Of a DNA stretch of 64,000 nucleotides, positions 51,301 to 51,438 are shown one piece after another. The stretch's first letter is position 1; every line of letters starts with the position of its first letter. Origin of the DNA: a virus (taxonomy: Duplodnaviria > Heunggongvirae > Uroviricota > Caudoviricetes); the IMG/VR virus record IMGVR_UViG_3300024345_000775, positions 25,144 through 89,143 of that record. One strand, given 5' to 3'. Under the pieces are notes generated by a model. That model ran no database searches, was not told where the DNA came from, and saw only the letters and a program-made list of their open reading frames with translations. The position numbers and the translations under genes were made by a program.

Positions 51301-51438
51301 TGGGGAGACCTGGACTCGAACCAGGAGAATCTTTTTTCCAATAAAAAGCGTGTATAACCATAGAAGTAACTCTCATGTTGACAATCCCTTTCAGGAAGAA
51401 ATACATAAGAGGTTGTTCAAAAATTTCACCATCTCCCC
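51301..51438 (-). ncRNA. 138-nt tRNA-like RNA: perfect 7-bp acceptor stem and canonical T-arm separated by a long non-tRNA insert
   Basis: Minus strand 5' GGGGAGA...(insert)...CCTGGTTCGAGTCCAGG-TCTCCCC-A 3'. 7/7 complementary acceptor strands 130 nt apart, canonical T-loop. Tracked ORF 51296-51511 overlaps it and is probably spurious. Confidence 0.35.

What the first reader, a model, noticed from the sequence alone, without database searches (positions are those of the whole stretch)
51301..51438. 138-nt tRNA-like RNA: perfect 7-bp acceptor and canonical T-arm around a long insert; annotated ORF 51296-51511 likely spurious
GGGGAGA at the 5' end pairs perfectly with TCTCCCC immediately after a canonical T-arm (CCTGG-TTCGAGT-CCAGG) 130 nt downstream on the minus strand. 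A 7/7 match at that spacing is improbable by chance. There is no standard D- or anticodon arm, so this is neither an ordinary tRNA nor long enough for tmRNA. It resembles the long-range acceptor-like closing stem plus T-arm architecture of Y-RNA tRNA-like modules, or an intron-containing or rearranged tRNA.
Basis: seen in the sequence. Interest (0 to 1): 0.55.

Follow-up and report, generated by a model that had tools for sequence, protein, structure and literature searches.

The report
tRNA-shaped phage RNA carrying a handle
A gut phage encodes a 138-base RNA that is a complete tRNA shape with a 62-base structured hairpin in its D-loop; the same hairpin design also clamps the ends of neighbouring tRNA genes, which suggests a so far undescribed recognition tag used by the phage's RNA repair or processing machinery (it also encodes a Ro60-like protein and an RtcB ligase).

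Summary
In detail: GGGGAGA/TCTCCCC plus a canonical T-arm at 51301-51438 (minus strand). It is the only long element of this kind in the window apart from the tmRNA. The 71-aa ORF over it is spurious. Four orthologue variants from two phage lineages keep every helix, with four compensatory double changes. The body is a full tRNA scaffold, and a 62-nt insert sits between D-loop positions 17 and 18. With the insert removed, ARAGORN calls every variant a tRNA. The insert is a two-helix module with conserved loops (AUUUCU / UUGUCA) and a UUACUUC tail. The same module, formed by leader-trailer pairing, brackets tRNA-Thr, tRNA-Arg(CCU) and a small unknown RNA next to an RtcB gene. It recurs beside a Ro60-like gene in a third lineage. 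Across 13 copies 97% of positions pair and 10 of 11 pairs covary. The phage encodes a Ro60/TROVE protein but no canonical Y RNA. My best reading (0.4) is a Y-RNA-like tRNA mimic whose module is a protein handle. The main rival (0.3) is an excised intervening sequence. I found no published description of this.

The parts
51301..51438 (-). The whole 138-nt tRNA-shaped RNA (position 1 = 51438)
   Evidence: Conserved in L158, L007 and L162.
51432..51438 (-). Acceptor 5' strand GGGGAGA. It pairs with 51302-51308 (TCTCCCC); discriminator A at 51301.
   Evidence: 7/7 pairs. A5-U to G-C and G6-C to A-U in L007/L162.
51350..51429 (-). D-arm. The stem is GUG (51427-51429) with CAC (51350-51352). The D-loop is AAUU (51422-51425) plus GGUUAUA (51353-51359), interrupted by the insert.
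   Evidence: With the insert deleted, ARAGORN calls a tRNA at its default threshold. Stem and loop are invariant in 4 variants.
51360..51421 (-). 62-nt insert in the D-loop (RNA positions 18-79), the hairpin form of the module. Linker UUUGAACAAC 51412-51421; H2a 51403-51411; loopA AUUUCU 51397-51402; H1 UCCU-GAAA-GGGA 51385-51396; loopB UUGUCA 51379-51384; H2b 51370-51378; tail UUACUUC 51363-51369; UAU 51360-51362.
   Evidence: H2 shows UG/CA to CA/UG. H1 loses one C and one G together in L007, and shows U-G to C-G in L162.
51331..51348 (-). Anticodon-type hairpin CUUUUU-AUUGGA-AAAAAG. The triplet at the anticodon position is UGG.
   Evidence: L007 and L162 have a 5-bp stem with loop AUCUGAA (CUG). 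L158 gains an A, giving a 6-bp stem with loop AUUGGAA. The window copy reads as 5 bp + 8 nt or 6 bp + 6 nt.
51309..51330 (-). Variable loop AUUCU (51326-51330) and T-arm CCUGG-UUCGAGU-CCAGG (51309-51325)
   Evidence: Invariant in all variants. U48 can form the Levitt pair with A15 (read from the sequence).
51441..51451 (-). TTATTACTAAA, a possible start signal shared with the Arg(CCU) unit (47393-47403) and the tmRNA leader (47162-47172)
   Evidence: 8 minus-strand matches against 3.7 expected, 3 of them directly 5' of these RNAs. This is an inference only.
51296..51511 (-). 71-aa ORF, judged spurious
47404..47534 (-). Bracket-form module around tRNA-Thr(GGU) 47433-47506. Leader: GGAGGG-UUGUCA(C)-AGAGAGGG-UUACUUC. 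Trailer: CCCUUUCU-ACCUCUCU-CCCUCC.
   Evidence: H1 and H2 are compensated in L157.
47262..47393 (-). Bracket-form module around tRNA-Arg(CCU) 47292-47367. Leader: AAAGCAGG-UUGUCA-AAUAUGGAG-UUACUUC. Trailer: CUCUAUAUU-AUUUCU-CCUGCUUU.
   Evidence: RNAfold recovers it. 17/17 positions pair, with 0/2000 shuffles matching. Two double changes in L157.
47173..47254 (-). Bracket-form module 'X' enclosing a ~38-nt unknown RNA (47192-47229). GGGG-AUGUCA-GUGUAAAG-UUACUUC ... CUUUGCUC-UUUUUCU-CCCC.
   Evidence: Two double changes in L157. Weak on its own (510/2000 shuffles match).
45001..46212 (-). RtcB RNA ligase gene, next downstream of the cluster tRNA-Thr / tRNA-Arg / X / tmRNA
   Evidence: Pfam RtcB, E = 1.5e-62. 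Synteny is kept in L157 and L158.
17908..19524 (-). Ro60/Rsr-like protein (TROVE + vWA, 538 aa), the proposed partner of the module
   Evidence: Pfam TROVE 5.9e-4 and VWA_2 2.9e-5. PDB 9KOP/9L5Y phage Ro60, E = 8e-9 over residues 26-463. PHROG 850, 4.5e-30. More than 2000 relatives carrying TROVE / vWA_Ro60.

Best explanation
The locus encodes a stable non-coding RNA with two parts. The first part is a complete L-shaped tRNA body: a 7-bp acceptor with free ends, D-stem, T-arm, and U8, A14, A15-U48, G18/G19 and G53-C61 all in place. The second part is a 62-nt rod inserted in the variable pocket of the D-loop. The rod is a portable recognition module made of two helices of free sequence. These hold a conserved internal loop (AUUUCU opposite UUGUCA) and are followed by a conserved single-stranded UUACUUC. 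I propose that the module is retained and serves as the docking site for a phage protein, most likely the phage's own Ro60/TROVE protein. The tRNA body would then present a tRNA-like surface to a second factor, such as a tRNA-recognising enzyme, an exonuclease like PNPase, or RtcB. That would make it the functional analogue of a bacterial Y RNA (YrlA), but with a different topology: the ends lie in the acceptor stem and the handle is closed by a GAAA loop at the elbow. The same handle, built from leader-trailer pairing, marks the primary transcripts of a few neighbouring tRNAs. Shown here: the RNA structure, its conservation and covariation, the shared module, and the presence of the Ro60-like and RtcB genes. 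Inferred: that the module is retained, that Ro60 is its binder, and the tethering role.
For: (1) Structure under selection. 100% of 40 pairs are kept in 3 aligned variants, with 4 double compensatory changes against 0-1 in slid controls. Paired indels in H1 and in the anticodon stem keep the helices. (2) The module is a family. Across 13 copies in 3 phage lineages, 97% of positions pair against 65% in shuffles (0/500). Ten of 11 pairs covary. The loops and tail are invariant or nearly so. This pattern of free helices with fixed unpaired bases is expected of a sequence-specific protein site. (3) The phage encodes a Ro60-like protein. Characterised Ro60s, including phage ones, bind Y RNAs built as stem-bulge-stem plus, in bacteria and phages, a tRNA-like domain (PMC4201824, PMC12135203, PMC7824862). 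(4) No canonical YrlA lies within 4 kb of that gene or anywhere else in the window, so its partner must be non-canonical or encoded elsewhere. (5) In L164 four module units start 3.2 kb downstream of the 52%-identical Ro60-like gene on the same strand. (6) In L016 an RNA that matches Rfam YrlA end to end (30.5 bits, E = 1e-4) is closed by that lineage's bracket helix. (7) The anticodon arm does not behave like a decoder's. The triplet is UGG or CUG, the stem is 5 or 6 bp and the loop is 6, 7 or 8 nt among close relatives. A canonical tRNA-Pro(UGG) already exists at 22686-22760. (8) The phage makes at least one other non-decoding tRNA mimic, at 59715-59785, whose anticodon loop is replaced by a GAGA tetraloop. 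(9) No nuclease site of standard tRNA processing (RNase P or Z) flanks a D-loop insert. Retention therefore needs no new enzyme (inference).
Against: The canonical Ro-binding motif GNCGAAN0-1G / CGAA is absent from the module and from the whole window. The candidate lies 32 kb from the Ro60-like gene, not within 4 kb. A Ro handle closed by a loop and placed in a D-loop has no precedent. The module also brackets apparently genuine tRNAs (Arg-CCU scores 58 bits, Thr 48 bits, and Pro and Lys in L164). There it must come off for the tRNA to work, which fits a processing signal just as well. L165 has a Ro60-like gene with no module within 5 kb. The basal AAUU/GGUU pairs of the rod would sequester G18 and G19. 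There are no expression or binding data. Only 64 kb of a ~169 kb genome was examined, so a standard Y RNA or a dedicated nuclease could lie elsewhere.
Confidence: 0.4

Rival explanations
1. The insert is an intervening sequence that is removed. The module would be the recognition signal of a dedicated, still unidentified endonuclease, and RtcB would rejoin the ends. This would yield a ~76-nt tRNA (Pro-UGG in this lineage, Gln-CUG in the sister lineage). It is the logic of archaeal bulge-helix-bulge splicing, where one signal serves introns at many positions, leader-trailer stems and permuted tRNAs, but with a different motif and in a bacteriophage.
For: With the insert deleted, ARAGORN calls every variant a tRNA at its default threshold, and the D-loop becomes AAUUGGUUAUA. 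The same module flanks genuine tRNAs, where it has to be removed. RtcB, the ligase for 2',3'-cyclic-phosphate and 5'-OH ends, is the next gene after the module cluster, and this synteny holds in L157 and L158. In L016, otherwise canonical tRNA-Asp (Rfam 54 bits with a 43-nt D-loop insertion) and tRNA-Ile carry hairpin modules. tRNA-Trp carries one at position 31/32, which is incompatible with decoding unless it is removed. A permuted tRNA-like RNA is bracketed there too. The phage also tolerates another interrupted tRNA gene, the group I intron in tRNA-Leu.
Against: No splicing endonuclease, RNase III or other nuclease domain was found among the 67 window ORFs of 120 aa or more. There is no bulge-helix-bulge geometry. 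The splice boundaries are undefined, and the position of the UUACUUC tail relative to mature tRNA 5' ends varies by 4-5 nt. The anticodon arm is non-canonical in 2 of 4 variants and the anticodon changes between relatives. RtcB in phages is usually explained as repair of tRNAs cut by host nucleases (PMC7824862). Protein-dependent tRNA splicing has no precedent in bacteria or phages, to my knowledge.
Confidence: 0.3
2. The module is a processing stem for a host double-strand-specific RNase (RNase III type). This would resemble the leader-trailer stems around rRNAs and the intervening sequences of 23S rRNA. The brackets would release the tRNAs from their transcripts. In the candidate the rod would be cut out without re-ligation, leaving a two-piece tRNA-like RNA held together by the acceptor and D-stems, or simply inactivating it.
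For: Two helices around an internal loop span about 20 bp in total, the size of T7-type RNase III sites (established knowledge). Leader-trailer topology is seen for three units in the window and four in L164. The insert replaces part of a loop with an extended helix, as rRNA intervening sequences do.
Against: RNase III has little sequence specificity. That does not explain 19 unpaired nucleotides conserved across lineages whose proteins are only ~50% identical. RNase III ends (5'-P, 3'-OH) are not RtcB substrates. Only a minority of the phage's tRNAs carry the module.
Confidence: 0.12
3. It is a decaying or hitch-hiking element. On this view a pseudo-tRNA acquired a copy of a leader sequence or small mobile element by recombination, and the RNA has no function of its own.
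For: The insert shares its 3' half with tRNA leaders. The anticodon arm drifts. L016's related tRNA body (d5863) carries its module at a different position.
Against: Compensatory changes occur in the acceptor stem, which lies outside the insert. Both helices are preserved by paired indels. The T-arm, D-stem and D-loop are fully invariant across lineages that are ~72-89% identical. The extra U in the anticodon stem is re-paired by an extra A in L158. Bracket copies cannot arise by inserting a contiguous element, because adjacent half-modules are not complementary to each other.
Confidence: 0.08
4. The conserved TTGTCA-N8-GTTACTTC is a DNA-level promoter. In the candidate it would drive a 5'-truncated tRNA fragment from inside the D-loop.
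For: The bipartite motif ends at or near tRNA 5' ends.
Against: The N8 spacer covaries with a distant complementary segment in every copy, upstream in the hairpin form and 80-130 nt downstream in the bracket form. That is an RNA-level constraint. The acceptor 5' strand upstream of the motif covaries with the 3' end, so the transcript includes both. An 8-nt spacing fits no known sigma factor (established knowledge).
Confidence: 0.05
5. The 71-aa ORF 51296-51511 is a real protein-coding gene and the tRNA-like features are coincidental.
For: It is an intact ATG ORF, and gene callers called it on two contigs.
Against: The frame is destroyed in L158, L007 and L162. It is not called in L005, L007 or L158. 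The substitutions are pairwise compensatory for RNA helices.
Confidence: 0.02

Closest known systems
Bacterial/phage Y RNAs of the YrlA type (Rfam RF02553; Chen et al. 2014, PMC4201824; phage phiLo Yrl1/2, PMC12135203)
   Same: A small RNA of about 80-140 nt that combines a tRNA-like domain (T-arm, D-arm, acceptor-type stem, tertiary-pair nucleotides) with a stem-bulge-stem bearing conserved unpaired bases. It is encoded by a genome that also encodes Ro60/TROVE and RtcB. Some large tRNA-rich phages that also carry a tmRNA have such a system.
   Different: The ends are in the acceptor stem, not in the handle. The handle is a closed hairpin in the D-loop, not a terminal stem at the anticodon position. 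A separate anticodon-type arm is kept. There is no GNCGAA motif and no Rfam hit. It lies 32 kb from the Ro60-like gene. The same handle also brackets real tRNAs.
Archaeal tRNA introns at non-canonical positions, leader-trailer bulge-helix-bulge motifs and permuted tRNA genes (processed by EndA + RtcB; PMC4090602)
   Same: One structural signal occurs inside tRNAs (at D-loop, anticodon-arm and other positions in related phages) and between leader and trailer. A permuted tRNA-like RNA is bracketed by it. An RtcB ligase is encoded alongside.
   Different: The motif is a 6x6-nt internal loop between two helices plus a 7-nt tail, not two 3-nt bulges 4 bp apart. No EndA homologue was found. The host is bacterial (tmRNA; Bacteroidales/Prevotella labels on relatives). 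Splicing is unproven.
RNase III processing stems of rRNA operons, and the intervening sequences of 23S rRNA
   Same: Long-range leader-trailer helices enclose a stable RNA. An extended helix replaces part of a loop in a stable RNA.
   Different: The loop and tail sequences are strongly conserved. The target is a tRNA scaffold. There is no evidence of cleavage.
Phage T4 rnaC ('species 1 RNA', 139 nt) at the end of the T4 tRNA cluster
   Same: Nearly identical length. Encoded in a phage tRNA cluster. It has a canonical T-arm (CCGGG-UUCGAAU-CCCGG) followed by an acceptor-like strand, a hairpin at the anticodon position and a long extra structured region. Its function is unknown.
   Different: No sequence similarity and no module. 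The extra structure lies 5' of the tRNA-like part, not in the D-loop. T4 has no Ro60.
Ordinary tRNA (Rfam RF00005)
   Same: All four arms and the conserved tertiary nucleotides are present. It is called a tRNA once the insert is removed.
   Different: A 62-nt D-loop insert. The anticodon arm is irregular and evolutionarily unstable. ARAGORN and Rfam do not detect it as it stands.

Membership tests
YrlA / bacterial Y RNA (RF02553) | GNCGAAN0-1G (CGAA) motif in the 5' strand of the Ro-binding stem | tested here: not met
   GNCGAANG has 0 matches in the window. The module loops are UUGUCA and AUUUCU.
YrlA / bacterial Y RNA (RF02553) | T and D stem-loops with tRNA-like conserved nucleotides | tested here: met
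   Canonical T-arm, a D-stem, and A14, A15, G18, G19, A21, U8 and U48 are present.
YrlA / bacterial Y RNA (RF02553) | 5' and 3' ends pair to form the Ro-binding stem, and the acceptor-like stem is a closed hairpin between T and D | tested here: not met
   The ends are in the acceptor stem, and the handle is a GAAA-capped hairpin. The bracket units and L016:5738-5849 do have paired ends.
YrlA / bacterial Y RNA (RF02553) | Encoded within about 4 kb of rsr on the same strand | tested here: not met
   The candidate is 32 kb from the Ro60-like gene, on the same strand. In L164 module units start 3.2 kb downstream of the gene.
YrlA / bacterial Y RNA (RF02553) | Covariance-model score at or above the gathering threshold | tested here: not met
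   No YrlA hit on the candidate at E<=10 or in the window. L016:5738-5849 scores 30.5 bits against a gathering score of 69.
YrlA / bacterial Y RNA (RF02553) | Bound by Ro60/Rsr | not testable with these tools
   Needs immunoprecipitation or EMSA with the protein of 17908-19524.
tRNA (RF00005) | 7-bp acceptor, T-arm and D-arm | tested here: met
   The D-loop is interrupted by 62 nt.
tRNA (RF00005) | 5-bp anticodon stem with a 7-nt loop and a stable anticodon | tested here: inconclusive
   Canonical in L007 and L162 (CUG). 6 bp + 7 nt in L158 (UGG). 5+8 or 6+6 in the window. The triplet differs between lineages.
tRNA (RF00005) | Detected by tRNA finders as it stands | tested here: not met
   ARAGORN with and without -i, and Rfam, all negative. 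With the insert deleted, it is called at the default threshold.
Archaeal-type spliced tRNA intron | Bulge-helix-bulge motif (3-nt bulges separated by 4 bp) at the exon-intron junctions | tested here: not met
   The fold shows 3x3, 4x4 and 6x6 internal loops, with no such geometry.
Archaeal-type spliced tRNA intron | Splicing endonuclease (EndA/Sen) encoded or available | tested here: inconclusive
   No such Pfam domain among 67 ORFs of 120 aa or more in the window. About 105 kb of the genome was not seen.
Archaeal-type spliced tRNA intron | RtcB-type ligase | tested here: met
   45001-46212, Pfam E = 1.5e-62.
Group I intron in tRNA | Catalytic core (P3-P9), usually more than 200 nt, inserted in the anticodon loop | tested here: not met
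   The insert is 62 nt, lies in the D-loop and has no Rfam hit. The phage's tRNA-Leu does have one.
RNase III-excised intervening sequence | An extended helix replacing a loop of a stable RNA, cleaved by RNase III | not testable with these tools
   The helix geometry is compatible. Cleavage needs an experiment.

The most novel reading that the evidence does not exclude
Gut phages of this group run a protein-dependent cut-and-rejoin system for their own tRNAs. The two-helix module, or its AGUA...UACU|UAC variant in the L016 lineage, would be the signal for an unidentified endonuclease, and the phage RtcB would seal the ends. The same signal would remove inserts from D-loops and anticodon arms, trim leader-trailer brackets and circularise permuted tRNA-like RNAs. 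This would be a bacterial-virus counterpart of archaeal tRNA splicing that evolved with a different motif. It might keep phage tRNAs inactive or nuclease-resistant until they are processed.
Probability: 0.22. Interest if true: 0.9.

Novelty: new variant of a known kind. Interest (0 to 1): 0.66.

Why it matters
If the module is the docking site of the phage Ro60-like protein, three things follow. It would define a new, topologically rearranged class of Y RNA. It would give a testable RNA partner for a very abundant family of gut-phage Ro60 proteins, with more than 2000 relatives found. And it would link Ro60, RtcB and phage tRNAs in a single system, probably aimed at host tRNA-cleaving defences. 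If the module is instead excised, it would be the first enzyme-dependent tRNA splicing system in a bacterial virus. In either case tRNA finders and Rfam miss these genes, and gene callers replace them with spurious ORFs. Phage tRNA repertoires in metagenomes are therefore under-counted and mis-annotated. The compact, portable module may also be useful as an engineering tag.

Tried and rejected
1. A viral-contig scan for the T-arm plus acceptor 25-mer gave 0 hits. A scan with the neighbouring 168-aa protein found no relatives. IMG/VR lacks this lineage.

2. A viral-contig scan for TTGTCAN{7,9}GTTACTTC gave more than 120 single hits. The 20-base hairpin pattern gave 22 hits. None has the helices, so all are chance matches.

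3. The phage GenBank collection matched only the flanking tRNA-Glu.

4. The metagenome scan with the module/D-loop junction returned only two loci, L162 and the L008 contig. This added one variant.

5. I suspected that the anticodon triplet and the discriminator co-vary (UGG+A, CUG+G). L162 refutes this with CUG+A.

6. The idea that the insert is a repeat or mobile element within the window was rejected: the 43-nt core is unique.

7. A sigma-70 promoter/terminator scan found nothing meaningful.

8. Canonical YrlA near the Ro60-like gene, and the GNCGAA motif, are both absent.

9. RtcB relatives at ~63% identity (L159, L160) and a Ro60 relative (L165) have no tRNAs or modules nearby.

10. PHROGs and Pfam gave no annotation for the hypothetical proteins flanking the cluster, for example the 234-aa ORF at 47540-48244.

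12. A literature search for the motif returned only primer sequences.

13. Searches for phage tRNA D-loop introns found nothing relevant.
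Full report
**Context**

The window is part of a ~169 kb phage genome assembled from gut or rumen-type metagenomes. Identical stretches occur on ENA, JGI and Logan contigs of up to 169,149 nt. All genes lie on the minus strand. The window holds 12 tRNA genes and a tmRNA, and a tRNA-Leu(UAA) gene interrupted by a group I intron. It also holds an NAD-salvage gene block, an RtcB RNA ligase, a HAD domain of the 'Swiss Army Knife RNA repair' type and a Ro60/TROVE-like protein. Some RtcB relatives carry the labels Bacteroidales or Prevotella, which hints at the host.

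**The observation**

On the minus strand, GGGGAGA (51432-51438) pairs 7/7 with TCTCCCC (51302-51308). That strand follows a textbook T-arm, CCTGG-TTCGAGT-CCAGG.

A scan for any perfect T-arm whose next seven bases pair 7/7 with a heptamer 40-400 nt upstream returned only the known tRNAs, the tmRNA and this element. Thirty shuffled windows gave three hits in all. ARAGORN (with or without intron search) and Rfam do not call it. The MFE fold keeps the acceptor and T-arm (z = -2.1).

The body is a complete tRNA scaffold. I number from G1 = 51438.

| Positions | Feature |
|---|---|
| 1-7 | Acceptor 5' strand |
| 8, 9 | U8, G9 |
| 10-12 with 87-89 | D-stem GUG/CAC |
| 14-17 and 80-86 | D-loop AAUU ... 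GGUUAUA (A14, R15, Y16, Y17, G18, G19, A21) |
| 90 | G26 |
| 91-108 | Anticodon-type hairpin, loop with U33 and a purine at 37 |
| 109-113 | 5-nt variable loop; its U48 can pair with A15 |
| 114-130 | T-arm |
| 131-137, 138 | Acceptor 3' strand, discriminator A |

A 62-nt insert (positions 18-79) sits between D-loop positions 17 and 18. With the insert removed, ARAGORN at its default threshold calls every orthologue a tRNA.

**Orthologues**

Neighbouring-protein and RtcB homologues led to related phages.

| Locus | Identity to the candidate | Notes |
|---|---|---|
| L158 | 98.6% | 132 kb contig |
| L007, L008, L009 | 89% | sister lineage |
| L162 | sister lineage | 168.5 kb contig |

On the three-way alignment all 40 modelled pairs are kept in every sequence. 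Four pairs change on both sides:

- A5-U133 to G-C in the acceptor stem.
- G6-C132 to A-U in the acceptor stem.
- UG/CA to CA/UG in the 9-bp insert helix (two pairs).

Slid controls give 0-1 such pairs.

The apical helix loses one C and one G together in L007, and shows U-G to C-G in L162. An extra U in the window's anticodon stem is re-paired by an extra A in L158.

The 71-aa ORF over the element is broken in every orthologue and is not called there. It is spurious.

**The insert is a member of a module family**

The order of its parts is:

linker UUUGAACAAC, then H2a (9 nt), AUUUCU, H1a, GAAA, H1b, UUGUCA, H2b (9 nt), UUACUUC, UAU.

The string TGTCA-N7/8-GTTACTTC has four minus-strand copies in the window. 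All are in RNA-gene contexts. Three lie in the cluster tRNA-Thr, tRNA-Arg(CCU), 'X', tmRNA at 47.1-47.5 kb. There the two halves of the module are supplied by the leader and the trailer of each gene.

For tRNA-Arg(CCU):

- The leader AAAGCAGG-UUGUCA-AAUAUGGAG-UUACUUC pairs with the trailer CUCUAUAUU-AUUUCU-CCUGCUUU.
- RNAfold recovers this.
- All 17 of 17 positions pair, and 0 of 2000 shuffled trailers do as well.

In L157, a lineage whose RtcB is 79% identical, the helices of all three brackets differ and stay paired. The loops and tail stay fixed.

A third lineage, L164, has four further complete brackets. They surround tRNA-Pro(UGG), tRNA-Lys(UUU) and two small unknown RNAs, and their loopB is UAGUCA.

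I assembled thirteen copies as equal-length virtual hairpins.

| Measure | Observed | Control |
|---|---|---|
| Positions paired | 97% | 65% in shuffles (0/500 reach it) |
| Positions paired, slid controls | | 32-49% |
| Pairs changed on both sides | 10 of 11 | |

One caveat applies. I chose the bracket strands as the complements lying next to the conserved loops, so the virtual alignment carries some selection bias. The real orthologue alignments do not.

**A more distant lineage follows the same logic with a different motif**

L016 uses a helix AGUAnn...nnUACU followed by UAC.

- It occurs as a hairpin inside four tRNAs. tRNA-Asp scores 54 bits in Rfam with a 43-nt D-loop insertion. The others are tRNA-Ile, tRNA-Trp (at position 31/32), and a body related to the candidate whose anticodon arm is replaced.
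- It occurs as a bracket around tRNA-Lys and around a small RNA.
- It also brackets an RNA that aligns end to end with Rfam's YrlA model (30.5 bits, E = 1e-4, below the gathering score).

**Proteins**

RtcB (45001-46212) is the next gene after the module cluster, and this synteny holds in L157 and L158.

The 538-aa protein at 17908-19524 is a Ro60/Rsr homologue:

- Weak Pfam TROVE and vWA hits in the right order.
- E = 8e-9 over residues 26-463 to the solved phage Ro60 (PDB 9KOP/9L5Y).
- PHROG 850 at 4.5e-30.
- More than 2000 relatives carrying TROVE or vWA_Ro60 annotations.

The literature states that bacterial and phage Ro60 proteins bind Y RNAs. These are built from a stem-bulge-stem with a conserved motif (GNCGAA / CGAA) and, in bacteria and phages, a tRNA-like domain. 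They are usually encoded within 4 kb of the gene (PMC4201824, PMC12135203). [quoted passage not shown]

The window has no canonical YrlA, near the gene or elsewhere, and no GNCGAANG. In L164 the module units begin 3.2 kb downstream of the Ro60-like gene on the same strand.

**Interpretation**

These points are firmly shown:

- It is a conserved, structured RNA gene.
- It has a tRNA body with a D-loop insert.
- The insert is a portable two-helix module with invariant unpaired bases.
- The module also brackets a subset of tRNA genes in at least three phage lineages that encode Ro60-like proteins.

The mechanism is inferred. Free helices combined with strictly conserved loop and tail bases, across lineages whose proteins are only ~50% identical, point to a sequence-specific binding partner. 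A generic double-strand RNase would not impose that pattern.

I favour the Ro60-like protein as that partner and retention of the module. This would make the RNA a topologically rearranged Y RNA (confidence 0.4). My reasons are:

- The phage needs a non-canonical Ro60 partner.
- No standard processing enzyme would cut inside a D-loop.
- The anticodon arm is evolutionarily unstable. The triplet is UGG or CUG, the stem is 5 or 6 bp and the loop is 6-8 nt. It also duplicates an existing tRNA-Pro(UGG).
- The phage demonstrably encodes another non-decoding tRNA mimic, at 59715-59785, whose anticodon loop is a GAGA tetraloop.

The main rival (0.3) is that the module is a cut signal and the insert is an intervening sequence rejoined by RtcB. 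The following support it:

- The tRNA is clean once the insert is deleted.
- Brackets on genuine tRNAs must be removed.
- RtcB is adjacent.
- L016 has inserts at positions incompatible with decoding.

Against it, no endonuclease was identified and there is no precedent.

Lesser rivals are:

- Host RNase III-type processing (0.12).
- A decaying relic (0.08).
- An internal promoter (0.05).
- A real ORF (0.02).

**Comparison with known families**

The element works most like a YrlA-type Y RNA but fails that family's defining tests. It lacks the motif, its termini are in the wrong place, it is not near rsr, and it does not reach the model score. It is a tRNA by scaffold, but not by detection or by anticodon-arm behaviour.

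It shares the 'one signal, many positions' logic of archaeal bulge-helix-bulge processing, but not the motif.

Phage T4 rnaC (139 nt, with a T-arm plus an acceptor-like strand, function unknown) is an architectural analogue without homology.

I found no description of the module or of such tRNA genes in the searchable literature. I rate it a new variant of a known kind. If splicing is proven, it would be categorically new.

Noticed in passing
window 59715-59785 (-): ARAGORN's 'tRNA-???' is a perfect cloverleaf (Rfam tRNA 53 bits). Its anticodon stem is capped by a GAGA tetraloop in place of a 7-nt anticodon loop, so it is an anticodon-less tRNA mimic.
   Followed up: partly
window 27755-28333 (-): A tRNA-Leu(UAA) gene is interrupted by a ~490-nt group I intron in the anticodon loop. 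Rfam Intron_gpI matches its full model at 34 bits (E = 8e-7), which is below the gathering score and so was missed by the standard scan.
   Followed up: partly
window 47173-47254 (-); L164 10044-10260 and 10719-10800: Bracket modules also enclose small non-tRNA RNAs of ~38, ~39 and ~100 nt. All contain (C/U)AUGGUU, which resembles a D-loop remnant. Their function is unknown, but they are conserved between lineages.
   Followed up: partly
window 47433-47506 (-) compared with L157 333-405: The module-bearing tRNA-Thr(GGU) has an extra A in its anticodon arm, giving an 8-nt loop or a mismatch. Its orthologue in L157 has a canonical arm but the anticodon GCU, without the long arm of a Ser tRNA. 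So module-bearing tRNAs change anticodon between close relatives.
   Followed up: partly
L016 5738-5849 (+): This RNA has the order T-arm, closed acceptor-like hairpin, D-arm, anticodon-type hairpin. It matches Rfam YrlA end to end (30.5 bits, E = 1e-4) and is bracketed by a perfect 9-bp helix, AAGAUACUU/AAGUAUCUU.
   Followed up: partly
L016 2146-2272, 2382-2494, 2840-2972, 5863-5979 (+): Four tRNA genes of 113-133 nt carry 43-63-nt inserts: Ile-GAU and Asp-GUC in the D-loop, Trp-CCA at position 31/32, and one that replaces the anticodon arm. They share the motif AGUAnn..nnUACU|UAC, and two share an identical 19-mer, TTTAGTTACTTACAATATC.
   Followed up: partly
L158 6166-8269 (+): In the 91% relative the RtcB gene is split into 150-aa and 266-aa parts around a LAGLIDADG-type ORF. 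This is probably an intron or intein insertion.
   Followed up: no
L164 11437-11522 (+): A tRNA-Glu(UUC) of 86 nt has an extra arm, AAGUA-GAAA-UACUU-C, at the variable-loop position. It looks like a miniature of the helix-plus-tail motif.
   Followed up: no
window 46746-47122 (-): A phage-encoded tmRNA (Rfam 93 bits) with tag ASRRRPVRLVA. It is preceded by a conserved, covarying leader hairpin that is distinct from the module.
   Followed up: no
window 51441-51451, 47393-47403, 47162-47172 (-): TTnTTACnAnA lies directly 5' of the candidate, the Arg(CCU) unit and the tmRNA leader. Each bracket's distal strand is followed by a U-run. Together these suggest that each unit is its own transcript with paired ends and a U-tail.
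   Followed up: partly
window 38312-42000 (-) and 11108-11869 (-): An NAD+ salvage block (NAPRTase, NAD synthase, isochorismatase/nicotinamidase, NUDIX, CinA, NADAR, Macro) and a HAD_SAK_2 'RNA repair' domain protein. These are probably counter-defence genes.
   Followed up: no
L161 1409-1547 (T4 rnaC): T4 'species 1 RNA' (139 nt, function unknown) contains a canonical T-arm and an acceptor-like 3' strand. It has a weak match to the tRNA-Sec model (17.5 bits).
   Followed up: partly
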